A stretch of DNA of 64,000 nt, taken from contig NC_092670.1 in assembly GCF_964355755.1 (NCBI RefSeq), positions 24,538,795 through 24,602,794 on the forward strand. The letters are read 5' to 3'. Source of the DNA: Antedon mediterranea. Its lineage: Eukaryota; Animalia; Echinodermata. Made by a program: the position numbers and the translations under genes. The notes under the pieces were generated by a model, which was not told the origin of the DNA, searched no databases, and worked only from the letters and a program-made list of their open reading frames with translations. This document shows, piece by piece, positions 15,426 through 61,878 of this stretch. Every line of letters begins with the position of its first letter. Position 1 is the first letter of the stretch.

Positions 15426-15979
15426 CCTAGATGGTTATAGTTATATAAAATAATAGTAGCTTCGAAAGTCACTTTGTTTTGTTTACTTCTGACATAAATT
15501 GTATATTACGCGTCGACAACCAGTCAGTACATTTCAAATTTACTTTATTATGTTTTAATTCAACATTTTCCTTGCTAAATTTCATGTAGAATTGCATTTT
15601 GTGTTTTGTTTATTTTGCATACCGTAACGTAGCTGGATTGAAAGGAGTTGCATGGGACGGAGGACAAAGTTTGTGTGTCATGGCAAGGCGAGGTCAGGGT
15701 CCTGTTAGATTGCCTTGGTCGTATACAACTCCTCTTTGATTCTTTCTTACGTCTCTATCACGATGCATCAATTTCAGAGAAATATGCAAAAGAAGAGTTT
15801 GAATATACCTTTCATTAACATGAATGATGAATGATTATAATAACAACCTTTGCTCACCGTAATATTTATTTCATATATTCTTGAAAATTATATTAAATTT
15901 TCTATCAGACAAAAGCATTCAACTTATCAAACAACAGCAACATTGTTGGTAATTATGCCTTAAAATTCATATTTCCATT

Positions 15980-16848
15980 TTAGGAACAACCTGGAACGTT
16001 GTATGCATGATCACACACACCAATGTTAGGATTGAACACAGTACCCGGTGCACAAGATCTGTGCCACATCCTACCACCATTACATTCATAATAGTATGAA
16101 CAATCGTGTGAATCGGCGAATAAACCGTCTTGTTCACATTTGAAAGAATCACCATCTCCTCCACCATCTAGAAAACGAAATCAACATTAACCAATCAATA
16201 TTAGGAAACTGAGACATCAGCTGGTTTCAGGGTGTTTAATCGTTGTGAGTGGCCTCATCACCCAATATTCCAAGGCCAATACAATGTAAGATTAATCTAT
16301 TGCCTTTAATATGTTTTCATTCATTTTTAAATGAATTTAATAATTTGTTTTCTCTGATTTTTTGTTATGTTTATGCGGCACTTTTTCGTCCATTTTTCTA
16401 AATTATCTCTTGCCATTATTGTTTTTGTTACTTTTTGTCTTTTGGACGTAAATACATGTTTTTTTAACTGAATTGAATACATCATGGACGAAAAAAATAA
16501 ATAAATCATTTCCTCCATGGCATAAGATACGATAAGATAATAAGATTTATAGAGCGCACATATATCCACAAAGTGCTCATAAACTTACTTTGCTGATCAT
16601 CTTGCAACCTGATTTTATACATTTGTTTATAGGAAAGTAAAATTTCATTTTTTCCTGATTTTTTAAAATGTTAACATCATTCGATTCACTCGTCGACGCA
16701 TGGAATTTCGATTTCTACCACTCCATATTTCCGAAACTGGAAGTCAAAATGTGTCTTCCCTCTCATATTTAATTTACTTTGATTGCTTTAAACTTAACTT
16801 ACCCGCAAAGGTGAAGCAGAGAACTGCAACAAAAATGAACGCCCTCAT
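15980..16848 (-). CDS. Predicted 77-aa secreted stand-alone CBM14 protein (chitinase-derived mini-gene); coding exons 16803-16848 and 15980-16167
   Basis: Signal exon [15 protein letters not shown] with intact phase-1 donor; CBM14 exon with intact phase-1 acceptor, six Cys and TAA. Expression is unknown, so it could be a pseudogene. Confidence 0.6.
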
Positions 16849-18225
16849 CTCGGTAAATATACCTATAAAAAAGAAAACATCCACATGCATCGTTTACAGT
16901 AAATGAAATATAGGTTTAGAAATACAGTTTAACGAATTGTATAACGGCAGGAGATACAAATAATGACACTAAAACATAGGACATCACGTTGACGCGCTTG
17001 TGTGTTTTCCTAGGCGGTGTAAAAGAGTTACAAAACTAAAAACCTACACACAATCATAAAGAAAGTTATACCAGGGAAGAGTTAAATTACAATGTAATTT
17101 AACTCTTCCCTGATTATACTTTATTTTTATTTTATTTTATTTTATTCAATTTCCAGGTAACATACAAAAATCATAAACAAGGTACGGCATCATTCAACAA
17201 AACAGAACAAAAGTACTATCAGCACCTGCGGGTAACCAAAAGTGGATCAGTTCAAAAGAACTGCACTGTCGAGTGGCTTTCCCAACTAATAGTACGAAAA
17301 ACGCAATAGACATAAAAATACAGTGATAGTCTAGATGAATTCGATATCAGTACCTGGTGATCGATTCTCAAAGTTAATATTGTTGTTCGAATGTTGTTTT
17401 TAATGCCCTTTTTATATACTTTGATAAGTATGCGTTTACATAATCATATCGAGGCATCGCGCAACATATGTTGTTATTGGTTTTTTGTGGGAAAACCACC
17501 ACACCACCCAAAATTGTGTCTTCACGCAGAGATGTGTATTTTCTGTGGATTAATGTTAAGCTTCAATACTAATGGATCGTGGGATGCAAACCTGAACAAA
17601 GATTTTCTTTTTATAAACTTGTATTCAAGTATGTAATCTTCATATTGTTCCATTGTAAAAGTTGTGATTTTTTTTTTAAGATCTTAATTTAAGATTAGGA
17701 TCTTAAGGCTACAAGAAATAAACTTTTCTCTGTAAGATCGCTGCAAACTATTATAAGTAAGAGAGTTTGTACGTTTGTTTGTGTGTTTGTTTGTTTGTGT
17801 GTTTGTGTGCTTGTTTGTTTGCTTCTTTGTTCGTTGTTACATAACCTTACATATGGGGTATCAAAATGACCGCAATTGTACCGGGAAACTACATTTGAAC
17901 ATCATCCGCCATTTAGGATCCAAATTAGAGGGGCCAAAATATGGTCAAAATGACCCACTTTTCCCCACTATCGATGTTTGTTCGTTATAAAAATGTCTGT
18001 TTATGCACGTAACCATATAACATATGACCGCAATTGTACCGGGAAGTTTTTTAACTACATTTAAAAAATTCCATGAATCCGGGTTTTTTTTTTAAGGGGG
18101 AGGGGGGTGGGTGGGGAGCTGACTGGGAGATGGAGATACTGGAATTAGGAGGTGATAGAAGTACAACATAGGCCTAATTAGAATTGTAGGTTTGGTAATT
18201 GTGGCGGGATAGGGAGAGGAGAAAG
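16391..18225 (-). repeat. Recent duplicate of the chitinase 5' region with an internal deletion
   Basis: 16391-16594 matches 44699-44901, and 16593-18225 matches about 47195-48628, both nearly identical. They are joined at a CT microhomology. Confidence 0.92.
17122..17350 (-). mobile_element. Short retroposon 3' fragment with (AAAAT)n tail, inserted next to the duplicated exon-1 donor
   Basis: Absent from the parental site at 47711-47723; tail reads (TTTTA)n on the plus strand. Confidence 0.6.
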
Positions 18226-21966: not shown

Positions 21967-22154
21967 TTAGGAACAACCTGGAACATTGGCGGGCCAATCA
22001 CATGCACTATTGGCTGGGTTGAAAACAGTGCCACTTCCGCAAGGTTTGTGCCACATGTTACCGCCCGAACATTGATAATAGTATGCGCAATCGTCTGGAT
22101 CGGCAAATACACCGTCTTGTTGGCATGTGAACGAACCACCACCTCCTCCACCAT
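21967..22154 (-). CDS. Chitinase exon 10, CBM14 chitin-binding domain to stop
   Basis: Spliced frame reads [61 protein letters not shown]. The ORF-track entry here is in a different frame. Confidence 0.93.
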
Positions 22155-25100
22155 CTAGAATACAATATAAACTGTCATTAACTAACCATTTAAATTTAGT
22201 AGAGTTATTTAAAATCCGTTTGCTGCTTTATGTCGTAGGGCTATCTGCATATTTAACTATACTCAGACGCGTAACGCAGAGACATGAAGCCCCTGGTTTT
22301 GGAACCCTAAGTGGCCCTCCAACGCTGGAGGCCTCGGACGTATTTAGCCATTTTCGACATATTTTAATGTCTTCCTCTGGGCACTGCTCAGAGGCCGACA
22401 TTAGCTCCGGGTTTAGCCAGAGAACTGATTATACTGAAGTTATTTTTTCCGACTCCAATTATTCATCAGTCACATATAGTTCGTAAATAATAATATTCTT
22501 TATTCATTTCTAAAATAAAGACATTAAATTATTTCTTTTTTCTTTCATTCATCATTGATTTTATCTATTTTTATACTACATCATAGGCCTATATTTTTTC
22601 ACATATTTTGTACTACTTTGTAATTTCATTTTAATTGATATGTTTCAGTGTAGTTTTCTAATTTACAAATTCGTCACTTACTACTTTTGGTGGTTTGTGG
22701 AGCTGGTTTCTGTGTCACTATTGGTTTTGGTGTTACTACTGGTTTCGGTGTCACTACTGGTTTATTTGTGGTAGGTTTTGGTGGTGGGTCTGTAGGCACT
22801 GGTCCTGGACCTGATCCACCACCATCTAAAGCATTTTTTATCTGGTTGATAAGAGGATATTTGCCAGAATTACATTGTGAACCACTGAAGTCATCGAGAT
22901 CTAATGCCCATACGATCACACCTCCGTATCCATTTTCCTTCAGCCAGTCCAGCTAACGATGGTAAATAAGAAAAATCAAATCATAAGCAACCATTGATAC
23001 GTTTATTTATAATAATATAATATTATTATTGAAGAGAGAGTTTGCTGATGCTCATTTCAGAAAGGAAATTATATTGGTAATTAAAACCTAACCAATATTT
23101 TCTAGGTCGAAATGAAAAAATGAAATATGCAACTGTGGCTATACCTTTTACTGATATACTATTCTTACTGATTAGCGAAGTGTGTGTACCTTAATCTTAT
23201 AGCTGGTGAAGTCATCATAACCAACCCATTGGTTACCCTTGTACATATATGGAGCTTGTATATCACTGTCGAAAACTCTAGTCCCGCCAGTATCTTTCAT
23301 ACTGCAAGCCTAAAAATGTAAAATAGTCGAGTAGTCCTACTTTCAAATGTTGTTAACTAGTTAGTAAAAGAAACAGGTGGCGAATCATGGACTTTATTCG
23401 AAATAGCCCATTGAAATAATATGACTGAAATTATAATTAACAAAGAACATTAAATACACAGAGAATCACAGGATCCAATCAAACTAGAATTAGAATGTTT
23501 TTTTTTATCAAAAGGTTCAGAAGCATTTTTTAATGTTGTTGTTTTTACAGTTTGTCGTTTGTTTTTAAAGTCGAAATTGTTGTACATCAAAAATGTCATT
23601 AATTTTATTTTAAAATGCGGTTTTAATGTCTTCTATTAGTACGTCATTCCACTTTCGGAGTATAAACGTCATTTTGAAGGAATGACATAGGGGCAAGATT
23701 GATACACGTTATTTTTTTCCGATCGATATCGTAAGTAAGTTTAGAATTTAGTTGACTTTAATTAAGCACTAATCAGAAAATCGGGGTGGTGTCATTAGAT
23801 TGGTCTGAAAGCACAACTGTTATGTGTAATTTAATTTAGATAAATCCTTCGTTTAAAAAACTTTTTTTAATATAAATTTCTATCTGTGTGGGTGATAATT
23901 GAGCTTGTTGCGTATTACTGCTTAGGCTACCTCATAGTAGGAGATGAAACCCTTCTCCTTGGTGTAAATCCCGGCATTGCCTGCACCACTAGCTGAAGCA
24001 CCAATTCCATTATTTGCAGATGAGCTTAGTGTGAATGACCGGCCGTACGTTCCAAATCCAATCATGAGTTTATCCTTTGGGCATCCTCCATTCACCCATT
24101 TGTCAGCTGCCCAAGTCTAAGAATTAATTTGAAAATTTTTAATAATCTACACAAAATTAATTACAAGCTTAAATTGTTTTTGATGAATATGACGTAAACC
24201 AATGAGTTAATGAGTGAGGGTAGATCGTTACTAGTAATAACTAGAAAGCCACTCCGAGAGTGCATACCTCCGCCTACTGTAAAATTCTTCTACATAAGAT
24301 TTCTCCGGGAAAAAAAATGTATATTTATATATCTGTGTGTGTCTTAATGCTGTTTGTGATTTAGGCTAATTTCACTACAAGAATGTGTATGCGAGTTTGG
24401 AGTAATGGTTATGTAACAAAAGCCTTTCAATTAACAATAGCTTCAGTTGACTAACAATAGAAAAGCAACGCGAAAATCAAACGAGTGAAATTGAAAAGAA
24501 ATAGGTTTTTTAAACTACTCTCATCAGAAAAGGTGCAACATTAAATCAAATTATAAAATTACAAATCACCAATTATAACTCTTGCCTCTTGTACAAAAAT
24601 AAAGTTTTTTGGACAATAGAGAGAAATGGCGAACCGCGATGACGTCACTCAAATTTCACCGAGTGGGTATAGATTGTAAACAAACCATTTCGCCACATGT
24701 TTTTGTATTGGAAATTCCGGTGGGTTGAGTTAAAAAGGAAGGTAGAAAAGAACGTTTAAAACACACATAATAGCAGTATCTTTTTTTTGCAACACCCTTA
24801 ACAATTTTAATGTTATATGGGCAAATCTTAATATATTTTATTTTAATTTGGATTGAATTAAGACCCCTTTTTGTTATATACTGTACCCAGCTCTAGGCCC
24901 TAGAGATAGTTGGCCTGTATGCTGTAGTACCTCGAGCCTAGCTTGCATACTGTACTACTACTACTACTACTTTAGCTAGGGTGCTGCTAGGCCTCTCCTA
25001 GCTAGGTAGTAAGACTAAATAGAGCATCTCTAGTAGATGTAGGCCTAGCATTAGTTTCAGCTTGACAACTGCCATTTTGTTATGTGGCTAGTGATGCTTC

Positions 25101-28100
25101 CTGCATGGGGAGGGGAGGGGAGGGGGGTGGGGCTACCGCCAGTAATGAATACTTGATAACACCATTCTACTATAATACTATAGGCCTAGTCTAATGTAGA
25201 CCTACAGATATGAGATATTTTTAGGAATATGATTGTGAATGATGGATGACTTTTATACATATTTCATTGTTTTATTGTGTAAATACACAAATACAACAAG
25301 AATTATGATGAGTGTTACAGCAACAACGTTGGTTAGACGACGCCATGATTCACGTGTATAAACATAGGAAATGTGTCGCCCTCAACGGTTTGTTATGATT
25401 TTATACCCACTCGGATTTTAGACGTCGGTTCGCCATTTCTCTCTATTAGTTCTCGAAAAATGCAGTTTTCAGTACAGTATTTTAAGACTGCTCGCCGGTT
25501 TTTGAAAATTGTCTCCTATCTTTTAACACTAGCCGGTCAGAAAATAATATCATTTTTGTTATTTGTGAAGTTATTAATAAACCAATTTTGTTGATTTTCA
25601 ATAGACATGATCAGAAAGTATATACCTATCTACACCCAAAAAAATTCAGAAAGATAACTTGAAAACTGTAGGCGCTATCGTGCTAACAAACAAACATACA
25701 TACATACAAACAAAGTGAATACTATACTTGGCAAAATTCTTTTTGCCAAGTAACAAACAAACAAACATAGGCCTACATACATACAAACATACAAACATAC
25801 ATACATACATACAAACATACAAACAAAGTAAATACTATACTTGGCAAAATTCTTTTTTTTTTCAAGTAACAAACACACAAACAAAGTAAATACTATACCT
25901 GGCAAAATTCGTTTTTGCCAAGTAACAAACATACAAACATATATACAAACATACAAACAAAGTAAATACTATACTTGGCAAAATTCGTTTTTGCCAAGTA
26001 ACAAACAAACATATAAACATACATACATTATGGTAAAATCTCTGTTAGATTTATTTAATAGAATCATCTTTTTTGAACACCCACCAGAAGACTGGAATTT
26101 AAGTTTAATTATTCCAATCTTTAAACATGGTGATAAGAGAGATTTGAACAATTATCGTGGAATCTCTCTTACATCTTGTGTATCAAAATTATTTAATAGA
26201 GTAATTGCTATGATGAATCAAACTATTTGGAATATGATAATGCACTGACGGAAGTACAGGGTGGTTTCAGGAAAGATCATAGGTGTGAGGACCATATTTT
26301 TGAAATGAAAAGTATAACTGCTTTAAGAAAAAAAAATGGAAAAAACACCTATCTAGCTTTCCTGGACTTCCGAAAGGCATTTGATTCCGTTTGGAGAGAT
26401 GGGCTCCTGAAAGCCATATGGAATATAGGAATAAGAGCACGTTTGTGGAGAATTATTGATAACATGTATGCAAATGTCAAAGGGAAAGTAAAATTTGGGG
26501 TTACTGTAACTAATGAATTTTCAATTGAACAAGGAGTTAGACAGGGATGTGTGCTATCTCCTATTCTGTTTTGTATATTTATCAATGAGCTCACAAAAAT
26601 TCTAAAATTAATTGATATAGGAGTTCATATTAATAACATATGGCAAGGAGCCCTTTTCTGGGCAGATGAAAATGAGCAACAAGACTCACATGTTACAGCA
26701 AATTTGCCATTGATTGGAAAATGCAATTTAACCCAACTAAATCAAATGTACTTGTTGTAGGTAAGAAAATAGATAAACAAAAGTTATGGAAATTAGGAGA
26801 CCAGTCGATAACTGAGTGTGAAGCGTATAAATATCTAGGTGTAATGATATCAAGAGGTGCAAATGACCATAGCCATGTAGAATATATTATACAAAAATGT
26901 AACCGACTCATAGGCTATATAAAAGCCGTAATTGGTAATTTAAAAAATTTTAATAGAGTATATTATGGTGATATCCTCTGGCGAACAATTGCACTCCCAT
27001 CAATAAATTATGGTAGTACTATTTGGGTTGGTAGCAAAAGTGATTGTGAAAGAATTGAAAGACTACAATTACAAACGGCAAGGTTTATCCTTAAGGCCTC
27101 TCGGAATACCCCTTGTGCTACTCTTTATGGGGAACAGGAATGATGAGCTCGTAACAGACACACACATCGGCTATCTGATCCGTCAATAATGATACTTAAA
27201 ATACAGCCATCTATTAAAAAACCAACTCACATTTGAATATATATATATAAACGGTGAATACAACTGCACGTCAACATGAGCCGAGAAAGAAGAAATAACA
27301 AAAAAGATAAAGAAAAAGATCGAGTTCTACTAGCCCCAGAATCATCAACTCTTGACTCTGAATGCGGGGACCCTGACGGAACCGAAGCAACAGAAGTGGG
27401 TATGCTGAGGCGGGAACTTCGAACATTTCAAACCATCATCAAGGGTAAGCTAAACTCGATCATTTTAAATCAAGAGGCCTTACTTAAACGAATTGACAAG
27501 ATCGAACATAAACAAACGGAACTAGAAAAATCGATCGCATTTACCAGTGATTCAATCGTAGAGATAGAGAAGAAAATCGTATCATTTTGTACGGACATTG
27601 AAGCGGTTAAGACATCAATGGACGCCGACCGGAACAACGTAACATTACTTCAAAATCAAATCCTTAAACTTGAGAGATACTCTAGAAGTTTTAATTTGAG
27701 ATTCGGTGGAATTAAAGAAAGTATAGATGAAATTCCAATTGAGAAAATTAATGAAATTATAAAGAACGATCTGAAACTACCGAACATTACAGTCGAAAAT
27801 GCCCACCGTACAGGCAAACCCCGTACTTCACCGACCGGAGCACCTAGACATATTATCGCTAAATTCCTGTTTCGACCGCAACGCTACCAAGTACTGATGC
27901 AAGCCAAAACAGGTCATGTGTTGAAAAATAAGGGGATCTTCGTACTAGAGGACTTACCAGAAACTGACCTTAAAAAGAAACGTAATCTCAGAGAAATAAT
28001 GGCAAAAGCATACGGAGAAAGGAAACGACCAGTGTTTAGAAACGGGAACCTCTATATTAACGGAAAACTCCACTCATAAGCCGTTCATACGACTTTTGTT

Positions 28101-31100
28101 TTTGTCAACAAAGTCTTCGTAAAAACTACGATGTATGTAAACAATCAATTACATTTGCATATGAAAGGGTGTCTCCTGTCAAACGTGTTATTGTTCTCAC
28201 CTACTATTACGCCACAATTAAGTAACAATCATTTGCATACAGATGAGAGAATGTCCCATGTCAAACACATATTGCTGCCATACTACCACTGTATGTAACA
28301 AACCAGCTAATCAATTACTAAAGTAACCTAATCCAAGACACATTGGGATACAGGTGAGAGGATGTTCCAGTCTATAACGAACATGTGATTGTCTAGTTAA
28401 TTGTACGTACTATCTAGAAAATGGCTGAAATAGTACCGGTATGTTTATATTGCTGCTTCTTTTTTTTTATATTTTATATAATACATCTGTATTATAACTA
28501 TATAATGTACCGACGTACTGTGTATTATTATTTATGTTATGTCTTTGAGTTTCTCATTGACGTAAACATGACGGATACACTAGACAGGCCTAGATAGTTA
28601 TCTTATTACTCTACTGTATAAACATCTGTTACAGTATATAGTAATATTTTTTAATTAAACTTATTTATTTTATTTATTTATTTTTTTTAAACTATATATA
28701 TATATTTATTTATTTTTTTTTTTTATTTTTCTTTTTATTAATGTTACCTTTTTTAAGCAATACTACTGATGATGATGATAAAGATCTCAATCCCTATCTT
28801 AAGTATAATGAATCTAAATACTACCATGTTGAAGAATTTAGACAAATTTCAAACATATCGGATGATGTTTCTTTTCTGTCACTTAACTGTCGTAGTATCG
28901 TCAACAAGTTTGACCAGTTCTCACAATTTATTGACTCACTTAATTATAAGTTCTCTGTCATTGCCCTTCAAGAGACATGGTTGAGCGATAATGATGAAGT
29001 TTCATTTCTTAACTTGCCGAACTATGTGCTTGTAAATCGTAATCGTACGGGTAGACGGGGCGGAGGCGTAGCTCTATATATTTCTGACAATTTGTGTTAC
29101 AAACCACGAGATGATTTATCTAAATTAATTACTGAAGCTGAATCCTTATTCATAGATATGATAATTGACGGGAAATATATTTCAGCTGGGGTCATTTATA
29201 GACCACCTGAATCTAAAATCAGTATATTTAATAATCAATTTACAGAAGTTATGAATATAATTAACAAAGAAAAGACGCACTCATACCTTATGGGTGACTT
29301 TAATCTCGACCTTAACCTATACCATTCAAACTGTAATGTTCAATGTCATGTGGACGCCACTGTTTCCAATTCTTTCTTGCCCCTGATTAATAAACCGACT
29401 CGTGTAACAGAAAATACATCTTCTATTATTGATAATATATATAGTAATTCTACAAATAATCACAATATCAATACTGGAATTATTTACACAGATATATCAG
29501 ATCATTATCCTATATTTGCAATCACAAAATCTGAGAATCGTAAAAAAAAATACAAAACAGTCATTTATTTTAAAACGCACTTATTTCCACCAGCAAGTCG
29601 AATCCTTTAAGGAAGACTTGGCAATTGAAAACTGGCAACCTGTCCTAAGAACAGAAGATGCAAACACTGCATATTCAACATTTGCTCACAACTTCAAACA
29701 TTTAATTGATAAAAACTTTCCTTTGAAAAAAATTAAGGCAAAAGCAAATAAAGATCGATCGATCGAAATGTAAATAGAATTAATTATATGGAAAGAATTT
29801 TAAAGATGGAAGATGAACGTTGGCCTAGGATATTACTGAAAACACTAGTTAAATTGACCGAGAACTTTAATGATCTATCATTTAAAATTCCATTATGTGT
29901 TCGAAATATCATTGATAATTGTGGCACACATATTTTTTCGAAATGGTAATGATAACTTTGATGCCAACTGGGCTTCCAGTAAAAAAATAATTATGACAAA
30001 TCTAGCTCTCTCGCATTGGGTTGAAGACGGTAAATGTAAAACGTCAATTGAACATTATATGTATATAAAAAATGAACCAAAACTTGAACAGTATCTACTT
30101 GATAAAATTGACTTTGAAGGAGCATCGTTAAAATTTAAGCTGCGATCAAACACCCTTCGCATTGAAAGAAAAACATCTAAATGGTCAATGAGCCTAATGC
30201 TAATGGTTGTAAATTGTGCAACAGAAATGAAGAAGAAACCATTATGCACTTTCTCCTAGCATGTACCACTCTAGAAGAAGAGAGAAAAAACCAAATTGTT
30301 AAATTCCAACAAGCACTTTTGGAATGTAATCTTTTTTATCTCTTTGACTATTTTCAAAATTTAGATTTATTCAACAAAACCCTTCTTATTCTAGGCAATG
30401 ACCCTGATTTATTTGATAAATATTATTATTAAGTCTTTAATCGACAATTTCTGTAAATCTTTGGCTAAATCTTTATGGAAGAAACGTTGTGCTCTTTTAA
30501 ACTTGTAATGTCAATGCTGTAGTGTTTTGAATTGCTTTTCAACTTTTGTGTGTCATTTTGATTTCTGTTTAGTAATCTTTGTCTTTTTATTTTAATTATT
30601 TTGTGTGTATCTAAGCATTTTTATTTATTTTGATTCCTCTTAAGTTTGTTTTATTTATTTTGATTTAAAGTATTTATTTATTTTTTTGTTTTTGTAAGAG
30701 TTAGGTTTTGTATTTCATTCATTCATTTGATTTATTTTTAAGTTAATAATTTTATTTATTCTTGTATGTTATTATTTGGACGCACCTTTATCATCAAAGT
30801 GTGCCACTGTTGTAAAAGTGAAGTTTCCAATAAATTATTATTATTATTACATACAAACAAATTAAATACTATACTTGGCAAAATTCTTTTTGCCAAGTAA
30901 CAAACATACAAACATGCAAATTAACAAACATACATTAAGGTAAAACAAACAAACAAAGTAAATACTATACTTGGCAAAATTGTATTTTTCCACACGCGAT
31001 CTATTACATATACCTCCTTGGCGGAGGTAACAATAATAACTTACTATTGTAAGTTTTTCGTCATCACTGTTCGCGCCTTCAGGTGCTTTGAGGGCGCTGT

Positions 31101-34100
31101 GGTGACCAGTTACGTTTTCCCAAGAGCCATGAAGATCGTAAGACATCAAACCAATCCAATCCAACTCCCTAAAGTAATTCAAAGTGCAATGACATCAGCA
31201 TTTCTATTGTATGTTGATGGCAACTTGTATTTCGAACTCAATTCCAAATAACCCGTTTACCTTGACAATAATTTTCAAATGAAAACGGAACACCAAAAGC
31301 CTCCACTAGGCTAGTCAATCTAGCATTTTGAGTGAAACAAATTGCAAACAGAGATTTTTTTTTTTTTAATGGTTACATATGATAAGGTGATTATTTTTTG
31401 AGCATCACACCTCTGACACTCATCCCGAAGGTATGCAAATTAGCTTAAATATGCAAATTAGGGTGAAATTACAGGGTTACCATATCTTAAAAACTACTAA
31501 TCGTAGAGAGTTCATTTTTGCACAGTCTGGTTCAGAATATATATATTTATATTTGCTCTAATGAGACATTTTACATAAAAATGTTCGGAAGTACCAAATT
31601 TTGACCCTTGACCCCATTTCTCAATATTTACATAAATATATGATTAAAATGTCTGTAGAGACTTTATTTTGGACTCAATGACTAGGATATTGTTTTTCAA
31701 TACCCACCATAGAACTGTATTATAATTCCTAAAATCACAACTTCGTCACGCACCTCGAAAGTATGCAAATTAGTAGTACAAGTAATATTAAATATGCAAA
31801 TTAGGGAGTGAAATTACAGCGTTGCCATATCTCGAAAACCGCTAATGCTAGAGTGTTGATTTTTTCACTAAAATATTTAAAATGTATATATTTATATTTG
31901 CTGTAATGAGACATTTTACAAAAAAATTCCCGGAACTATGACATTTGACCCTCGACCCCATTTCTCAATATTGCATATATAATGAAAACTAAAATGTCTG
32001 TAGAGACTTTGTTTTGCCCTCAAATGACTCGGATACAGGTTTCTAATAGCCAACATAGGAATGTTTAGTAAATCTCAAAATCACACTTGTATCACTCACC
32101 TTCAAAGTATGCAAATTATTAGTACAAGTTACATGAAATATGCAAATTAGGGGGTGAAATTACAGGTTCCTATATGTATCGAAAACCGCTAAGGTAGAGA
32201 GTTGATTTTTTCAAAAACTTGTTCAGAATGTACATATTTATATTTGCTCTAATGAAACATTTTACGAAAAAATGACCGGAAATACAACAATTGACCCTTG
32301 ACCCTATTTATCAATGTTTGCATACATAATGCGACTAAAATGTCTGTAGATAATTTTTTTGGACTCAAATGATTCGGATACAGTTTTCCTATTGTCAGCA
32401 TAGGACCTCTTTGTAATTCCCAAAATCACATCTTTGTCACATACCTTGAAAGTATGCAAATTATTAGTACAAGTTACATGAAATATGCAAATTAGGGGTG
32501 AAATTACAGTCTTCCCATATCTCGAAAACCATTAATGCTAGAGAGTTGATTTGAATTCAGAGTTGATTCAGAATGTACATATTTATATTAGCTGTAATGA
32601 AAAATTTTATGCAAAAATTGTCTTGATTGAATTATGACATCTGACCCTTGACCCTATTTCTCAATATTTTCATATAATTCAACTAAAATATCTGTACAGA
32701 CTGTTTTGGCCTCAAATGACTCAGATACAGGTTTTCTATAGCCAGCATAGAACTGTAGTAATTCTCAAAATCACACCTTTGTTACTTCCCTAGAAAATAT
32801 GCAAATTAGTAGTACAAGAGGTGAAAGTTGCCATATCTCTATCGGTCATTAGCGTTTTTCGAGATACATAAGGCTGTAATTTGCATATTTCATATAACTT
32901 GTACTAATAATTTGCATATTTTCGAGTTGCTTGACTTTTGAAATTACTAAACGATCCTATACTGGCTATATAAAACCTGTATCCAAGTCATTTGAGGCCA
33001 AAACAAAGTATGTACATACATTTTAGTTGCATTATATGCAAATATTGAGAAATAGGTTCGAGGGTCAAATGTCATACTTTCGATAATTTTTTTTTTCAAT
33101 AATGACCCAGATACAGGTTTTCTATAGCCAGCATAGAACTGTTTAATAATTCTCAAAATCACACCTCTGTTACTTCGCTTGAAAGTATGTGTTCTGAAGA
33201 ACAACAAAAGAATAATGAGGGCGCTATTGTATAGGGTGTAAAAGGCCGTTTTGGCGTGTCATAGAAAAATAAAAATAATACCGACAGCGTGGTTGGTAAG
33301 AAGTGTGAAAATAAAAGATAATAAAAATAAGAAAGTTCTTGCGTATATGTATATATTATTTATGGGCCTTTCTTCAGTACAAGAAAATGGTAGCAGAGCG
33401 AGGTTAGATAGACCAATTTAAACAAATTAAACTTTAAAGAACCAACATTTGTAGGCTGAAAGTTGTGAGCCTATAGTTAGTTGCAACGGAGCACGTGAGT
33501 AAAGTGCATGCTTCTAGCTAGGGAGCGAACGTCACACATACACGTGAGTACAGTGCATGTGTTATGCGCGATTTGAACGATTTGCGCAATTTGAAATTGC
33601 GCAAAAAAATCCTTGCGCAATTTGAAATTGCGCAAAGAATTCTTGCGCAATTTATAATTGCGCAAGGATTTTTTTGCGCAATTTCAAATTGCGCAATCAA
33701 CTTGCGCAATTTCAAATTGCGCAAGAAAATCTTTGCGCAATTTTAAATTGCGCTGCACAATTTGTAAATTGCGCAAGATAGTTCTTGCGCAATATGACAC
33801 CTTTGCGCAATTTGAAAACGAACTGTAAATTTTCCCATACATGGCTAGGCTAGGCCTAGGCAGAGGAGTTTAAAATTTAGTATTTTATTATATAAATAAG
33901 ACCATTTCAATGAAGATAATGTTTAAAACTCACTTTTTAAGTTTTTAATATTAGTTTAAGCTAGGCCATGTAACCTAGTCAGTATCAGTAGTCCAGACCC
34001 TAGCTAGGCTAGAGAAGTATAGACGGCCGCCCGCGCCGCGCCCGCCTGGTGGAACACCACCGCTTCGTTTCCCTTCGTCGGTTCTTCGACGGTATGCTAA

Positions 34101-37100
34101 CTTATAACAATATTTGCAGTACTAAAATAAGGAAATGCGATATTTATCTTTAAGTTTGAATCATTCTTAGAAATTACTATAAAAATATGGGTGTGCATGA
34201 TTTCACAATCTGTCGAAAAACCTTGCGCAATTTGCAGATTACTTGCGCAATTTAATACGTTGCTTGCGCAATTTGAAACACATGTTTCAATTCAAATTGC
34301 GCAAGGATTTTTTTTGCGCAATTTCAAATTGCGCAAATCGTTCAAATCGCGCATAACACATGCTTCTAAGCGAAAAGTCAAACAAAATGGAAGACATGGA
34401 GAAACAAAAAAAAGATATAAAAATACTACGAAGAAATAGAAAAGGACAGTTAACAAGGATTACAAACACAATAAATGTTTTGTGTCAGAAGGAGGAACTA
34501 GAGAGGGACATTGAGTTAATACAGAACTTATTAAAGAAAGCAAACGAGGTATTTGAAACAGTAGAGAGGGCTCACGAGCAGATTGTGGAAATGATAAATT
34601 TGGAAGATGAAGAACAATTTGAGGAAGCGGAGAAGTGGATGCAAGATTGCCAAAGGGATTTTCTAGAGGTGATACATGAGACTAAGAGGGTGCTGGAGCC
34701 GCCAGTCAGGGGAACAGTGACAGAAGAGACTGACAGAGTTATGGTAGAAGAGGACAGTGAAAACGTTGATCAGGGAGAGAAAGATGGTAATAATAAGGTT
34801 AACAGTAATGATATGGATGCTATGGCCGCATTCAAATTAGCCCTAGAACTTCCAAAAGCGGAAGTGATAGAATTCCATGGGGATCCGGGAAACGATTGGG
34901 CTTTTGTACCAAATTTTGAGATAAATGTAGCAAGTAAGTTAACATCAGATAATGCAAAATTACAATACCTTCTACAGTTATGTAAAAATAAGGCAAAGGA
35001 AAGTATAGTAAGTTGTCCTCTATTAGGAGAAGAAGGTTATAAGCAGGCTTTAGAGATTCTTAAAAGGCAGTTTGGGCAGCCCCATCTAGTTTTAAACTCA
35101 TTGATGCTTAAGTTAACCAACAGAAAAGAGATTAATGCAGGAAACCATGAAGAGTTATGGGGACTAGTCAGTGACATGAAAAAAATGTCAACTAACACTA
35201 ACAAAAATGGGGTACACAAATGATTTAAACAGTACCTCCAACCTATTAAAAATTCAAGGGCTATTACCTAGATTTATGCAAGCTAAATGGGCTAATGCTG
35301 CACAATCAATACTTAGTGAAAGGGAACCAAGTTTCTTGGATATGTTAAAATTTGTAGAGAGTCAAGCTGCAGTAAACAGCAATATGTTTGGAAGAAATAT
35401 TGGCACTACAGCTAATGAAAATAAGAGTAAATTTTGAGTAGTAAACACAGATTTTAGAGGAAAAAAGGCTTACAGTCATAGTTGTACACCCACAGGGGAA
35501 AAGCCTAGTGAATCACCTTTGTTCACATGTGTATGTTGTAAGAAAAACCATAGGTTATGGGAATGTGTAAAATTCAGACAACTATCCATCAATGAGAGAT
35601 GGAATTGCTAGCCAAGAAAAATTGTGCTTTAAGTGTCTATGTAAACATAGGGCAGTTGATTGTAAACGGGTTATGTCCTGTGGTATAAATGGATGTAAGA
35701 ATGACCATAATAGGTTGTTACATAGAGAAAAAGTAAAAAAGGAAAGTAATTTTGAAACTGTAGAGGTAGGAGTTGCCAGGGAAGGGGAGCGTAAAGTAAC
35801 TAAAACAGAAACAGGGACAAACACTACATTGTTAAGTAAAAACCAATCTATTGCTTTGCGAACCATACCAATCATAGTTAGTAATGGAAAGAAAAGAATA
35901 GAGGTGAATGCATTATTAGATGATGGTAGTACTCAGACATATGTTAATGAAGAGTTATGTGGAGAGTTGGGTCTCAGTGGAGTAACAGAAGAGATGGTTG
36001 TGAGTTTGTTAAGTGGTAAGGAGGAAAGATTTGTGACTAAGCCAGTTGAGATATTTGTATTACCGTTGGATGGATCTAAAAAATTTAAAGTGAATGCAGT
36101 GACTATAAGTGATGTTACTGGTAGACTAGAAGCGTCAGATTGGAGTAGTGTTAGTAAGGATTGGGATCATTTGAGAGACATAGAATTTCCTGTAATAAGT
36201 AGTCAGAGAAAACAGATAGATTTACTGATTGGAGTGGATTGTCCAGAGTTGCATACAGCATTAGAAGAGAAATGTGGGGGTCCCGGAGAACCTGTTGCGA
36301 GAAGAACACCGTTAGGTTGGACGTGTGTTGGTCCTTTGAGTAGAAGTTGGCGAACAACATCACTACATGTGAATACTTACAAAACCAGTAGTGAACGAAG
36401 TAATGATGTGGACGAGTTGATGAGGAAGTTTTGGGAAGTAGATAGTTATGGAGTAAGTGATTTGAAAATATATAAAGCTGAAGATGAAAGAGTGATTCAA
36501 AAAGTGTCAAAGTCATTGACAGCTGTTGATGGGCGATACAGTGTGAATATTCCGTGGCGGGAAGAAGGATTAAATATGGATAACAATTATGAGATGGCCT
36601 TTAAGAGATTAGAGTGTCTAGAAAGAAAATTAACTAGAGACAAGATGTTAGGCGATAATTATCAAAACGTTTTAGATAATTACAGATCCAATGGCTATGT
36701 CAGAAAAATAGACCAATCCCTAACAGAACTAAATCAATGGTTTCTACCACATTTCCCAGTAGTTAAACCCGATAGGGAAACAACGAAAGTTAGGTTAGTG
36801 TTTGACGCCGCAGCGCGTTATGGGGGAAGATGTTTGAATGACATGATCTATCCCGGGCCTAAATTGCAGAACGATTTATTCGATGTGTTATTAAGATTTA
36901 GAAAGGAAAAGGTAGCGATTATTTGCGATATTGCAGAAATGTATCTCCAGATTGGAGTGCAACCAGAAGATAGGAAAATGCTTAGGTTTTTGTGGCGAGA
37001 TTTAGACACAGAGCGGAGGCCAGAAATTTATGAGTTCAATCGACTAGTGTTTGGTCTTAATGTTGCACCATTCTTAGCTCAATTTGTAACTCAGGAACAT

Positions 37101-40100
37101 GCACGAAAGAATTCTGAAGAGTATCATCTAGCAGCACGGGCTGTTTTAGACTCTACCTACATGGATGATACCATGACCTCGGTTAAAAATGAGCAAGAGG
37201 CAGTAGAGTTATATAGAGAGCTTAAAGAATTATGGGGAAGCGCGGGTATGAGTGCTAGAAAATGGGTTTCAAATTCAAAAGCGGTACTGGAAAAAATACC
37301 AGAAGTAGATAGAGCTAAAGAAATCAAATTAAGTGGGAACGAGTTACCTTCTGCAAAAACCTTAGGTTTAATATGGAAAGCCGAGGAAGATACATTTAAG
37401 TTTCAAGGAGGTTCTGGTCCTTCTAATGTCTGTAAGTTAACCAAAAGATTAGCTTTGAGTAGAATCGCTTCTATATTTGATCCACTAGGGATTTTGGCTC
37501 CTGTAGTAGTCGCAGGCAAGATAATTAGGCAAGAGATTTGGGCAAATGGATTAGACTGGGATGAAGAGTTGTCCCCTGATGTAGGTCATAAATTAGAACG
37601 ATGGATAGCAAATTTGGGCGAATTAAAAGATATAGAAATAGAAAGGTGTATAAACCCAGGTGAGCGCGAGAATCAAGAGTTGCATACATTTGTTGACGCG
37701 TCAAATGATGCTTATGCGGCGGTTGTGTATTCAGTGTCACAGAATGATAACGATGTTAAAAAAAGAAATGTAAGATTAGTCGCATCCAAAACGAAAGTAG
37801 CTCCTCTTAAATCCATGAGTATCCCGAGACTTGAGTTGATGGCAGCTATGTTAGGTTTAAAGCTTGCGAAATCTGTTGTAAATCCGTTACAATGTCAACT
37901 AAAGGAAGTGAAATTTTGGGGTGACAGTATGAATGCATTGTGGTGGATTCGAGGTCATAGTAGAGATTTTAAGCCGTTCGTTGCGAATCGAATTGGTGAA
38001 ATATAAGGTCAAACAAACCCTAGTCAATGGAGATATATACCCACTAAATTAAACCCTGCGGATGTGGCTTCGCGAGGATGTACTGTTATAGAGTGGCAGC
38101 AGAATGAACTTTGGTGGCGAGGTCCTGAATTCTTGAGTGATTGTGAGATGCAATGGCCAGAAAATAAGATTGAGAAAGCGATAGATGAAATAGAGATTAA
38201 GAAAAGTACGAAAACGTTATTGAGTAAAGTGGTACCAAGAGTGAAAAGTGATAACTGGAGATTAAACCCAATAAGGTACTCTAGCTGGAATAAGTTAGTG
38301 TGTGTATTTGCGTATGTAATGCGTTTTATAAATAACTGTAGGTTAAAAGACAAAGTCAGAGGACCATTAAATGTAGATGAGGTTAAGGACTCGGAAATTG
38401 TCATAATTCAAAAGGCACAGGGTGATGAGTTCTCAGACGAAATTAAGAGATTAAGTAAGGGTGAAATACTAAGTACAAAGAGTAATATAAGTGGATTGAA
38501 TCCTCGAATGGATGCCGATTATTTGCTTAGAGCAAATGGACGTTTAAGTCTAAATGAGGCGATATCATATGATGTAAGATATCCCATTATATTACAAAGG
38601 AAACATAACGTCACTAAATTAATTGTAAAAATGTATCATGAGTTAGGAAATCATGTCATAGGTACAAATCATACACTGTCATTATTATCTGAGAAGTACT
38701 GGGTACAAGCGGCTAGAGAAGAAATAAGAGAATGTGAAAAAAATTGTATGGGATGTAGGCGTAGATTAGCTAAACAAGGGGAGCAAATAATGGCTCCATA
38801 CCTAAGAATAGAACTAGAAATGAAAGTTTAAAGGCGTTTACTAGAGTCGCAGTAGACTATGCAGGTCCCTTCCTTACTAAACAGGGTAGAGGAAAGGTAC
38901 AAACAAAACGTTATTTGTGTTTGTTCACATGTTTATCCTCTAGAGCCGTGCACTTGGAAATGGCGTACGGTTTAGACACAGACACGTTTCTAAATGCTTT
39001 TCATAGATTTGTCAGTAGAAGGGGTAAACCCGAGGAAATGATGTCTGATAACGGGACAAATTTTGTAGGAGCTGATAGAGAATTAAAGGGAGTGTTAAAA
39101 TCCTTAGATAAAGATAAAATTCAAAGTGTGACAGTGGTCACTGGTATAAAGTGGAGTTTTATTCCACCTATGACCCCACATTTTGGTGGAGTACATGAAA
39201 TTCTTATAAAATCTGCTAAAAGGGCTATATATGGAGTATTAAGAAATGCCGATATAACGGATGAAGAGTTACATTCTGCATTTGTAGGAGCAGAGGGTAT
39301 ATTAAACTCACGTCCATTAACATATCAATCTGCCTCAGTAAAGGATGTAATTCCATTAACTCCAAACCATTTTTTACATGGTCAAATGGGAGGTAATCTA
39401 GCTCCAGAGAGCATATTAGACACAACAGTTTTTAATCCTAGAAAACGATGGAGACGTGTCCAAGAATTAATGCGACACTTTTGGAATAGGTGGTTAAGGG
39501 AGTGGTTACCAGCATTGAACCAACGAAAAAAGTGGAGGGAACTCAAGAGGGATCTTAGGGTTGATGAAGTGGTATTAGTAGTTCAGAAAGGTACGGTACG
39601 TGGTCAATGGCCATTGGGTAGGATAAGAGAAATATATAAAGGACCAGACGGTCATGTAAGGGTAGTTAAGGTGAAAACTAACAATGGAGATGTAATTCGA
39701 GGTATTACAAAAATGTGTCCACTAGAGATACTTGATTAAAAGAATGTTAAATATCAAGATATAGAAAGGTGTTATATTAAGAAGCACAAATGTTTAGGTT
39801 TTAGTGTTAATAAGTTTAGAGTTGAATTATGTTAAAGTGAACAGTGTAGAAATTGATCATATAATTGTTATACATTGTTGGATAATGTTCAAATAAGGAC
39901 AGTGATGTTAAATGAGTTATCAACAAGTTCAATGTGAATTAATATCAGTAAAAATAGTTTTTAATTTAGAAATGATGTTATATAATTTAGTGAATATGAG
40001 TGATAGGGTTTTTGTTGATAATGATGTTTCATGATATTTATTAAAAAGTTAGTTGAGATTGTAATAAAGGGATCGACAAACAACTGTATGTCGAGGAAGG

Positions 40101-43100
40101 GGAGAATGTTCTGAAGAACAACAAAAGAATAATGAGGGCGCTATTGTATAGGGTGTAAAAGGCCGTTTTGGCGTGTCATAGAAAAATAAAAATAATACCG
40201 ACAGCGTGGTTGGTAAGAAGTGTGAAAATAAAAGATAATAAAAATAAGAAAGTTCTTGCGTATATGTATATATTATTTATGGGCCTTTCTTCAGTACAGT
40301 ATGCAAATCAGTAGTACAAGAAAGTTGCCATATCTCTCTCTCTCGGTCATTAGCGTTTTCGAGATACATAAGGCAATTCACTGTAACTTGCATATTTCAT
40401 ATAGCTTGTACTACTAATTTGCATACTTTCGAGGTGCTTGACTTATACTGGCTATATAAAACCTGTATCCGAGTCATTTGAGGCCAAAACAAAGTCTGTA
40501 CATACATTTTAGTTGCATTATATGCAAATATTGAGAAATAACAATAATAATATCCTGGATTTATATAGCGCCTAATGTTGTGTAACCTCTAAGCGCTGTA
40601 CATAAACTAATACGAAAAAAGGGAATTCCAACCATGCCAAAAAACGAAGGCGTGATTTTGGGAATTACAAAGCGGTCCTATGCTGACTATAGGAAACATG
40701 TATCCGAGTTATTTGAGTCCAGAACAAAGTCTCTACAGACATTTTAGTGGCATTATGTATGCAAACATTAATAAATGGGGTCGAGGGTCAATTGTTGTAT
40801 TTCCGGTCATTTTTTCGTAAAATGTTTCATTAGAGTAAATATAAATATGTACATTCTGAACAAGTTATTGAAAAAATCAACTCTCTAGCCTTAGTGGTTT
40901 TCGATATATAGGAACCTTTAATTTCACCCTCTAATTTGCATATTTCATGTAACTTGTACTAATAATTTGCATACTTTGGAGGTGAGTGATACAGGTGTGA
41001 TTTTGAGATCTACTAAACAGTCCTATGTTGGCTATTAGAAACCTGTATCGGAGTCATTTGAGGGCAAAACAAAGTCTCTACAGACATTTTAGTTTCATTT
41101 ATATATGCAATATTGAGAAATGGGGTCGAGGGTCAAATGTCATACTTCCGGTCATTTTTTTGTAAAATGTTTTATTGGAGCAAATAGAAATATGTACATT
41201 TTGAATACGGCTGTGAAAAAATCAGCTTTCTAGCATTAGTGGTTTTCGAGATATAGGAAAACTGTAATTTTTTCCCCTTATTTGCATATTTTATTTAAAT
41301 TGTACTACTAATTTGCATACTTTCGAGATGTGTGACAAAGGTGTGATTTTGGGAATTACAAAGTGATCCTATGCTGGATATTAGGAACCTATGTCTGGGT
41401 CATTTGAGGGCAAAATAAAGTCTCTACAGACATTTTAGTCACATTGTATAGGCAAACATTGAGAAATGGGGTCGAAGGTCAAATGTTGTACTTCCGGTCT
41501 TTTTTTCGTAAAATGTTTCATTAGAGTAAATATAAATATATACATTTTGAATAGATCAGTGAAAAAATCAACTCTCTCGGACTAGTAGTTTTTGAGATAT
41601 GGTAACCTTGAAATTTCACCCTAATTTGCATATTTAAGCTAATTTGCATATCATCGGGATGTGTGACAGAGGTGTGATGCTCAAATTTTGATCTCCTCAT
41701 CATATATGACCATTTAAAAAAGAAAAATCTCTGTTTGCAATTTGTTTCACTTTGGGCTGTTTTTTTTTTTGCTAGATTGACTAGCCTACACTGATTATTC
41801 ACAAACAGAAAAAAAATATATTTTCAGTAAAAAGAAAACATTCTAATGTTTTAATAAAGAATGAAACGTAATCCATTATGGCATCACGTTGTCAAAAAGT
41901 GATACAATGTAACACTTAAATATCATAAGAAAAACATATTTAAAGACTCCCGTATGCTATGCTACCGTACTACAGTATCACTGCGCACCATTCAATCCTC
42001 ACAATCTATATATAAATTTACGTAAGGGCAAAATTCGGTAAATCGCGCCTTACTTCTAGAATTTTCACTCGATGGTATGTAAAGTTGGTTCGTACTTTCG
42101 GTACTGATTTTAACCGCCTGATGTAACCCTGTTTACTAATTAAATTGAGTTAGATAATTAGTTATTGACGATTAAAACGAATTTAGGTTCAACGATTTGC
42201 CCCAAATAGGGGTGTTTTCCGATCGTGGTATACACTGTCTAATGGATGTCCATCTTGAAAAATACCCGCCAAAAAAATGCGAGGAGGCTTCGCATTTTTC
42301 TATCTCCTCCTACGATAATTGTTTTTAATAGCTGAAAACCGGTTGAACAGCTAGAGTACACCATCATAATGTTGAAGACAGGCCGATTTTCTTTAAAAAA
42401 TACTATTTTGATAGATTTAATATACGATTATACAAATGTATTGATTTGCGATGAATGGAACATCCCAATCTCTCAGTCTGCCAGAGTTTGGTTTAACACA
42501 AGTACTGTAGGTAAATTTATGAGCCCTTGGTTTAACACATACGGTAGGTAAATATATGGGCCCTTTGAGAATAAACTTGCAATACTTTGACAATACTGTA
42601 AATACCTATTAACTATTTTTCATTTGAATCGAACATTTCTTACTGTGAATGTTCGTACTGTTAGATGTAATATAAAAATATATACAAATAAACTTTATTA
42701 CTGAGACTGTGGATAGGCTCTACTGTTAGATATACAAATAAACTTTATACTGACAGTTCCTTCTCAACGTTTGTATTAATTAATAATTACCAAAAATATA
42801 AACGTCGTAGTGGTGTATCGTGACATGTACTTTAATATTTCAATCGATTATGACAGTGACAGTTTTAACAAAGTATTAAATCGCAAATGTTTTAGGCCTA
42901 CTGTATTTAGAGGTATATTATTTATAGGCCTATAAAACATGAACAAAATATTTCGTTACTCAGTGGATAAAGAATATATTTAAAAATTGTTCCTCTTTGT
43001 ACCTATCCGCTTTCCCATCCCTCAACCCTAATGTTACATAGCGAGGAGGCTTCGCATTTTCCTATCTCCTCCTACGATAATTGTTTTTAATAGCTGAAAA

Positions 43101-45308: not shown

Positions 45309-45346
<38 letters not shown>

Positions 45347-47449: not shown

Positions 47450-47722
47450 CTCGGTAAATATACCTATAAAAAAGAAAACATCCACATGCATCGTTTACAG
47501 TAAATGAAATATAGGTTTAGAAATACAGTTTAACGAATGGTATAACGGCAGGAGATAAAAATAATGACACCAAAACATAGGACATCACGTTGACGCGCTG
47601 GTGTGTTTTCCTAGGCGGTGTAAAAGAGTTAAAAGACTATACCTACACACAATCATAAAGAAAGTTATACCAGGGAAGAGTTAAATTACAATGTAATTTA
47701 ACTCTTCCCTGGTTATACTTAC

Positions 47723-61093: not shown

Positions 61094-61878
<785 letters not shown>

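What the first reader, a model, noticed from the sequence alone, without database searches (positions are those of the whole stretch)
15980..17420. Birth of a catalytic-domain-free secreted CBM14 mini-gene from a chitinase
Seen: a near-identical copy of the chitinase TATA/exon 1/signal-peptide exon (16803-16848, phase-1 donor intact) lies 635 bp upstream of a second CBM14 exon (15980-16167, phase-1 acceptor intact), and all GH18 exons are missing. Splicing gives [77 protein letters not shown] (77 aa, six Cys, no stops). Known: stand-alone secreted CBM14 peptides exist, such as horseshoe crab tachycitin (antimicrobial) and the fungal effector Avr4. Inference: this could be a young chitin-binding lectin or defence peptide co-regulated with the parent enzyme. 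The ORF track misses it.
Basis: partly seen in the sequence, partly recalled or inferred. Interest (0 to 1): 0.85.

Follow-up and report, generated by a model that had tools for sequence, protein, structure and literature searches.

The report
Gutted chitinase allele, not new gene
In a feather star, the signal-peptide start of a chitinase is joined to the last, chitin-binding exon of a neighbouring sister chitinase with the enzyme exons gone; this is likely a recent deletion allele on one chromosome copy that would make a 77-residue by-product, not an established defence gene.

Summary
The anatomy is real. A ~97%-identical copy of chitinase A's promoter, exon 1 and signal-peptide exon lies 635 bp before a CBM14 exon, and the in-silico splice gives the stated 77 aa. 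RefSeq already predicts that exact protein (XP_071965977.1, Antedon mediterranea). The two halves differ in origin: the CBM14 exon is only 76% identical to A's. In both RNA runs laid, that exon is spliced at this acceptor to a linker-type exon, not to the signal-peptide exon. In a close relative's DNA it follows a paralogous linker exon. It is therefore the last exon of a sister chitinase, B. DNA from the one sample with the rearrangement holds both the window's junction and an intact-B-like path, most simply a heterozygous, recent deletion allele. The frame is kept because both splice sites are phase 1. The domain has His where human CHIT1 needs Trp465, and it is acidic. No RNA from a carrier was available, so expression is untested. 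Verdict: an ordinary structural variant in a dynamic tandem chitinase cluster, with a small chance of being a lectin at birth.

The parts
17351..18225 (-). Copy of chitinase A promoter and non-coding exon 1 (TATA-like box 17418-17409; exon 1 ends 17354)
   Evidence: 19 mismatches in 865 aligned bases to 48628-47720; motif read; the start site is not measured
17120..17350 (.). 231-bp repeat inserted at +4 of the exon-1 donor, changing GTAAGT to GTACTG
   Evidence: Absent from A; high contig depth in this bin in 3 of 4 runs
16803..16862 (-). Signal-peptide exon (ATG at 16848; 15 codons plus one base; phase-1 donor)
   Evidence: 45 of 46 coding bases identical to A; hydrophobic core; matches A, not paralog C
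16594..16802 (-). Start of intron 2 copied from A, ending at junction J1 (2-bp AG microhomology)
   Evidence: J1 itself was not seen bridged in the laid runs (tables were cut)
16385..16593 (-). Piece of A's exon-5 end and intron 5, with a leftover donor at 16588; partly a dispersed repeat
   Evidence: 0 mismatches in 201 aligned bases, 3 indels, to 44900-44699; one other copy in the window; high depth from about 16390
16168..16389 (-). End of the last intron of chitinase B; junction J2 at 16385-16389
   Evidence: X1 and X3 each hold one contig that bridges J2 exactly (16334-16414) and one that leaves at 16389 into other DNA; X5 record 14
15980..16167 (-). Last exon of chitinase B: Gly-rich spacer, CBM14 domain with six Cys, stop codon
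   Evidence: Pfam PF01607; spliced to a linker-type exon in X8 and X13; model pLDDT 87.5, best fold match CHIT1 CBM14
15865..15870 (-). AATAAA polyadenylation-signal candidate
   Evidence: Only AATAAA/ATTAAA in 15980-15700; use not shown
21967..47449 (-). Intact GH18 chitinase A, 502 aa, nine coding exons (47449-47404, 46254-46049, 45599-45357, 45020-44896, 31168-31045, 24116-23931, 23309-23190, 22952-22682, 22154-21967)
   Evidence: Open model with GT-AG introns; 74% identical to Anneissia XP_033108717.1; spliced contigs over its last exons in X8 and X13

Best explanation
The locus joins an A-type promoter and signal-peptide exon to the last exon of a sister chitinase B, and is likely a recent deletion allele of B on one chromosome copy that would yield a 77-aa secreted by-product if transcribed. 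Shown: the parts and junction J2 exist in DNA; the CBM14 exon is normally spliced to a linker exon; the carrier sample also holds a path that leaves J2 into other DNA. Inferred: that other path is intact B on the homologous chromosome. Inferred mechanism: a replication template switch or microhomology-mediated repair removed the catalytic exons and left a 209-bp patch copied from A's exon 5/intron 5 between two microhomologies. The A-like 5' end came earlier, either by gene conversion or unequal crossover onto B, or as a tandem copy of A; the data do not separate these. Splicing stays in frame because the signal-peptide donor and the CBM14 acceptor are both phase 1. Most likely effect: loss of chitinase B activity from that chromosome, plus a neutral acidic peptide with likely weakened chitin binding.
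For: X8 (same organism label, another sample): its 1 contig at acceptor 16167 continues into letters that match A's linker-exon end at 27 of 30 positions and the signal-peptide exon at 11 of 30. X13 (close relative): its 1 contig there continues with 12 letters, 11 the same as in X8. X5 DNA record 14 joins 15870-16362 over 130 letters to a linker exon with 59 differences in about 290 bases. X1 and X3 branch at 16363 into the window's junction (depth 8.8 and 153) and another path (13.6 and 293); the sums, 22.4 and 446, are near the shared contig's 19.8 and 399. Three divergence levels fit a recent event on an older 5' copy: 36 of 1388, 0 of 201 (Fisher p 0.011) and 5 of 1004 (p 4e-5). The cluster is mosaic: paralog C is 87% identical to A overall but 61 of 62 aa identical over the last exon. 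Chance of an intact frame without selection is 0.34-0.79.
Against: Depth shares of 0.39 and 0.34 fall below the 0.5 of a simple heterozygote, and contig depth is a crude measure. The 5' end of intact B was never seen. J1 was not seen bridged. No RNA from a carrier was laid, so neither silence nor expression is shown. Only 5 of 18 listed runs (4 samples) were laid, so allele frequency is unknown. Promoter, both splice sites, all six Cys and a polyadenylation signal are intact, and RefSeq models the product; what supports that model could not be seen.
Confidence: 0.72

Rival explanations
1. The rearranged locus is an extra copy; intact chitinase B sits at a separate locus, so no enzyme dose is lost and the short gene is a free, probably neutral, duplicate.
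For: Depth ratios of about 1:1.5 and 1:2 between the junction path and the other path fit one rearranged copy against two intact ones.
Against: The shared CBM14-B contig (19.8) has the depth of A-specific contigs (16.4-18.8) in X1. A search for longer proteins with this domain found no near-identical full-length B (1 hit among 6 candidates; the tool calls such a blank weak), although other chitinases of this genome are in the database.
Confidence: 0.14
2. A young but functional gene: the 77-aa precursor is expressed under A's promoter, and the 62-aa peptide acts as a secreted chitin-binding lectin or defence peptide favoured by selection.
For: All signals are intact and the frame is open; confident CBM14 model with stand-alone CBM14 proteins among the fold matches; RefSeq prediction; precedent in wheat WAMP genes (PMC4695807, passage); chimeric duplicates often change expression (PMC5460883, passages).
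Against: Seen in 1 of 4 samples laid and not fixed there. No stand-alone relative among 33-107 aa proteins except itself (1 candidate). His at the Trp465 position. Net charge about -6.6, pI 4.45. Exon-1 donor altered by an insertion. dN/dS of 0.43 against A accrued while the exon served full-length B.
Confidence: 0.08
3. The second CBM14 exon is an alternative last exon of chitinase A.
For: A's linker donor and this acceptor are both phase 1 and on the same strand, 6.5 kb apart.
Against: The exon upstream in X8 differs from A's linker end (27 of 30 letters with a codon missing), while X8's own A contig has 1 difference over that exon. X5 has a distinct linker exon directly upstream.
Confidence: 0.03
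4. The structure is a mis-assembly of similar paralogs or haplotypes.
For: Repeat-rich cluster; J2 abuts a dispersed repeat; J1 not seen bridged; the carrier sample may be the source of the assembly and so is not independent.
Against: An 81-base contig bridges J2 with no difference in two separate runs; window-specific letters at 16767 and 16811 are present in X1 at depth 12.8.
Confidence: 0.03

Closest known systems
RefSeq XP_071965977.1, 'chitotriosidase-1-like' [Antedon mediterranea], 77 aa
   Same: Identical sequence.
   Different: A computed model; the name implies an enzyme though there is no GH18 domain. The record as shown says nothing of the chimeric, non-fixed origin.
Animal GH18 + CBM14 chitinases (human CHIT1; Anneissia XP_033108717.1; Antedon XP_071951851.1)
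   Same: Signal peptide and six-Cys CBM14 come from this family; the domain groups with A and C at SH-aLRT 98 in a quick tree; best fold match is CHIT1.
   Different: No catalytic domain and no linker; His instead of Trp at the CHIT1 Trp465 position.
Segregating chimeric and partially deleted tandem duplicates (Drosophila yakuba survey, PMC5460883; passages read)
   Same: Promoter and 5' exons of one copy joined to the 3' exon of another; modified by secondary deletion; apparently not fixed.
   Different: Here the join is between paralogs of one family and removes a whole catalytic domain in frame; expression is not measured.
Wheat WAMP hevein-like peptides (review PMC4695807; passage read)
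   Same: Proposed origin of a stand-alone chitin-binding peptide from a chitinase by loss of the catalytic region.
   Different: WAMPs are established plant hevein-like peptides said to arise by a frame-shift deletion; this is a CBM14 exon join seen in one sample with no function shown.
Stand-alone CBM14 proteins: tachycitin, Avr4, mite Der p 23 and Blo t 12
   Same: Same fold (Foldseek TM 0.52-0.72 by query length, E 0.003-0.04); small and predicted secreted.
   Different: 21-30% identity only; tachycitin has 73 residues and five disulfides (PMC2866484, passage) against three possible here; no activity tested.

Membership tests
CBM14 (Pfam PF01607) | Profile match above the curated cut-off | tested here: met
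   51.8 bits against 22.1, profile positions 1-53 of 53
CBM14 (Pfam PF01607) | Six Cys and an all-beta CBM14 fold | tested here: met
   Six Cys; model pLDDT 87.5 from a 28-row alignment; top fold matches all CBM14, none at E<=0.001
CBM14 (Pfam PF01607) | Aromatic chitin-binding residue at the CHIT1 Trp465 position | tested here: not met
   His here, Trp in A; W/Y/F in 65 of 84 motif-matched domains (of 108 found), His in 5; position set by Cys spacing from the residue numbers in PMC5459812. A Tyr two residues on might compensate.
CBM14 (Pfam PF01607) | Binds chitin | not testable with these tools
   Needs a binding assay
GH18 chitinase | GH18 catalytic domain with DxxDxDxE | tested here: not met
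   No GH18 match in the 77-aa protein; present in A
Established stand-alone CBM14 defence peptide (tachycitin-like) | Own spliced transcript without a catalytic domain | tested here: inconclusive
   0 of 2 RNA runs show the join; both splice the exon to a linker exon, and neither shows carrier letters
Established stand-alone CBM14 defence peptide (tachycitin-like) | Fixed in the species and conserved in relatives | tested here: not met
   Carrier sample holds both paths; the relative has a linker exon upstream; no short relative found (a search limited to shared words)
Established stand-alone CBM14 defence peptide (tachycitin-like) | Antimicrobial activity | not testable with these tools
   Needs an assay; the peptide is acidic
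Segregating chimeric deletion allele of a tandem gene cluster | 5' and 3' parts from different paralogs | tested here: met
   5' part about 97% to A; 3' exon 76% to A and spliced to another linker exon. Whether intact B already had the A-like 5' end is unknown.
Segregating chimeric deletion allele of a tandem gene cluster | Rearranged and intact forms coexist as alleles | tested here: inconclusive
   Both paths are present in X1 and X3 with additive depth; allelism is inferred, not phased

The most novel reading that the evidence does not exclude
A stand-alone secreted CBM14 lectin caught at birth in an animal: one deletion turns chitinase B into a non-catalytic 62-aa peptide under chitinase A's promoter, carrying B's fast-evolved binding face (Trp to His). 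It is still segregating, so intact and new alleles can be compared within one species. This would be an animal parallel of the proposed chitinase origin of wheat WAMP peptides.
Probability: 0.08. Interest if true: 0.65.

Novelty: new member of a known kind. Interest (0 to 1): 0.27.

Why it matters
As read here it is a tidy example of how phase-1 signal-peptide and CBM14 exons let one deletion make a complete-looking small secreted gene without selection. It also warns that a RefSeq 'chitotriosidase-1-like' entry can be a broken allele of a gene whose intact form appears to be missing from the annotated protein set. If carriers express an active peptide, it would give a directly testable starting point for how stand-alone chitin-binding peptides arise from chitinases in animals.

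Tried and rejected
No whole genome is held for this window, so the cluster outside the window could not be read. The run search listed no holder on record as RNA; this says nothing on expression, and X8 and X13 were judged RNA from their spliced contigs. The first lay was swamped by repeats and its tables were cut, so junction J1 and low-depth joints could not be read. A single-sequence structure prediction was uninformative (pLDDT 49). The careful tree did not finish; the quick tree has 60 columns and many open forks. The window-private Pro-to-Ser change at 16057 was considered as decay and rejected: Ser is the commonest residue there (17 of 84). dN/dS of 0.43 was rejected as evidence for the short gene because the exon was part of full-length B. 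Earlier scan notes: nothing near this place or by words; one unrelated chitinase-kinase note elsewhere in the genome. Paper searches for crinoid or Antedon chitinases, Antedon genome papers and catalytic-less chitinase forms showed no description of this locus in their listings; the library is limited to open-licence papers and no supplements were read.

Full report
Setting. The window is AT-rich, repeat-rich eukaryotic DNA. It holds one intact GH18 chitinase on the minus strand, here called A: nine coding exons from 47449 to 21967, GT-AG introns, 502 aa, with signal peptide, GH18 domain, Pro/Thr linker and CBM14. A is 74% identical to a chitinase of the feather star Anneissia japonica. The window is therefore very likely from that feather star, and the product is already a public gene prediction.

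Observation. Confirmed as to coordinates, phases, intron length and translation. The domain passes the Pfam CBM_14 cut-off, gives a confident model with an alignment (pLDDT 87.5), and its best fold matches are CHIT1, Der p 23, Avr4 and tachycitin, at E 0.001-0.04.

Anatomy. Read in gene direction, the locus is a patchwork. Bases 18225-16594 copy A's promoter, exon 1, intron 1, signal-peptide exon and start of intron 2, with 36 mismatches in 1388 aligned bases and a 231-bp repeat inserted at +4 of the exon-1 donor. At J1 (16594/16593, AG microhomology) the sequence jumps to the last bases of A's exon 5 and follows intron 5 for 209 bp with 0 mismatches in 201 aligned bases. At J2 (16385-16389) it leaves A. 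The CBM14 exon that follows is only 76% identical to A's (39 of 61 aa; dS 0.54, dN/dS 0.43). A young 5' end on an old last exon cannot be a simple truncated copy of A.

Where the last exon belongs. Of 18 listed runs I laid five, from four samples. X8 (same organism label, other sample) and X13 (close relative) contain spliced contigs of A and so are RNA. Each has one contig reaching acceptor 16167, and each stops matching exactly there. In X8 the continuing 30 letters match the end of A's linker exon at 27 positions and the signal-peptide exon at 11, and read in frame as a Pro/Thr linker. X13's 12 letters agree with X8's at 11. In DNA of the relative (X5) one 1594-base contig runs from this exon through 130 other letters to a linker exon about 80% like A's. 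The exon is thus the expressed last exon of a sister chitinase, B, which predates the split from the relative. That B also has an intact GH18 domain is inferred; only its last exons were seen.

State of the rearranged form. In X1 and X3, one sample that may be the assembly's source, the contig graph branches at 16363. One 81-base contig matches the window across J2 with no difference (depth 8.8 and 153). Another leaves at 16389 into other DNA (13.6 and 293). The shared contig has depth 19.8 and 399. So J2 is real in that sample and coexists with a second form, most simply intact B on the other chromosome copy. The shares of 0.39 and 0.34 are below one half, which leaves room for a separate intact locus. 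Against that, the shared depth equals that of A-specific contigs and no near-identical full-length B protein was found (a weak blank). X5, X8 and X13 showed no carrier letters where they covered diagnostic sites, but contigs drop rare variants and two of these runs are RNA.

Mechanism (inferred). The patch from A's intron 5 (0 of 201) and the B side (5 differences in 1004 bases to the collapsed X1 contig) are both closer to their sources than the 5' copy is to A (Fisher p 0.011 and 4e-5). This fits an older A-like 5' end and a recent deletion of the catalytic exons with a templated patch. By eye, the other path's letters at J2 match the window at 11 of 14 positions with a one-base offset, an imperfect microhomology. 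Template switching or microhomology-mediated repair are the usual causes of such joins (own knowledge). The cluster exchanges sequence: a third paralog C (XP_071951851.1) is 87% identical to A overall but nearly identical over the linker end and CBM14. The short gene's signal peptide follows A, not C.

Would it work? Of A's eight coding donors only the signal-peptide and linker donors are phase 1, so joining the signal-peptide exon to a CBM14 exon is in frame by the family's architecture. The chance of no inactivating lesion without selection is 0.34 to 0.79, depending on the age assumed. Promoter, ATG, both splice sites and an AATAAA are present and the stop lies in the last exon, so a transcript in carriers is plausible; I put it near one in two. 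Against activity: mutation of Trp465 had the strongest effect on chitin binding in human CHIT1 (PMC5459812, passages), and by Cys spacing this domain has His there, where A has Trp and 65 of 84 homologous domains have an aromatic W/Y/F. The runs laid show no difference at that codon, so the His belongs to B, not to the rearrangement. The mature peptide is acidic (pI 4.45).

Comparison with what is known. It works like a segregating chimeric duplicate modified by deletion, a common class whose prevailing fate is loss (PMC5460883, passages). Loss of a catalytic region to leave a chitin-binding peptide has been proposed for wheat WAMP genes (PMC4695807, passage of a review). It shares the fold of tachycitin but not its size or five disulfides (PMC2866484, passage), and it fails the 'fixed and conserved' test for an established peptide gene. 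Five searches (listings only) showed no paper on this locus.

Verdict. A real feature, already predicted in RefSeq, best read as a recent chimeric deletion allele of chitinase B (0.72). An extra neutral copy is 0.14, a functional new lectin 0.08, an alternative exon of A 0.03 and mis-assembly 0.03. Interest 0.27.

Noticed in passing
window 33190-40298: BEL/Pao LTR retrotransposon inside intron 5 of chitinase A; its two 192-bp terminal repeats are 100% identical, so the insertion is very recent.
   Followed up: partly
window 1374-1697, 51611-51918, 54174-54489: A repeat family on the opposite strand carries 41-50 bp of the end of chitinase exon 4 (100% identical) plus about 260 bp of intron 4 (whole match about 83%), next to 15-bp tandem arrays; looks like gene-fragment capture by a transposon.
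   Followed up: partly
P0003 (XP_071951851.1), outside the window: Third paralog C on a contig of the same length, flagged LOW QUALITY PROTEIN; mosaic similarity to A suggests gene conversion. Low-depth contigs in X1 about 10% unlike A may be C.
   Followed up: partly
window 15983-16165: Chitinase B's CBM14 sits on a long branch (0.53 against 0 for A and C) and has lost the conserved Trp; the relative's allele differs further at 5 amino acids. B's binding domain may have changed specificity or be decaying.
   Followed up: partly
window 17058-17126 and 47657-47713: A palindrome of about 60-70 bp in intron 1 is shared by A and the copy but skipped in X5 and in a low-depth X1 contig; it dates the 5' copy after this insertion.
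   Followed up: partly
window 21967-47449: No protein matching the full 502-aa model of A was recognised among the 99 hits, though C was; A may be split or mis-modelled in the public annotation.
   Followed up: no
window 61873-63999, 26200-26757, 28645-29607: LINE-type reverse transcriptase and endonuclease ORFs; the first is 709 codons long.
   Followed up: no
window 57129-58508 and 31447-32818, 40647-41635: Tandem arrays with 30-bp and about 345-bp units; the 345-bp arrays flank the LTR element in opposite orientations.
   Followed up: no
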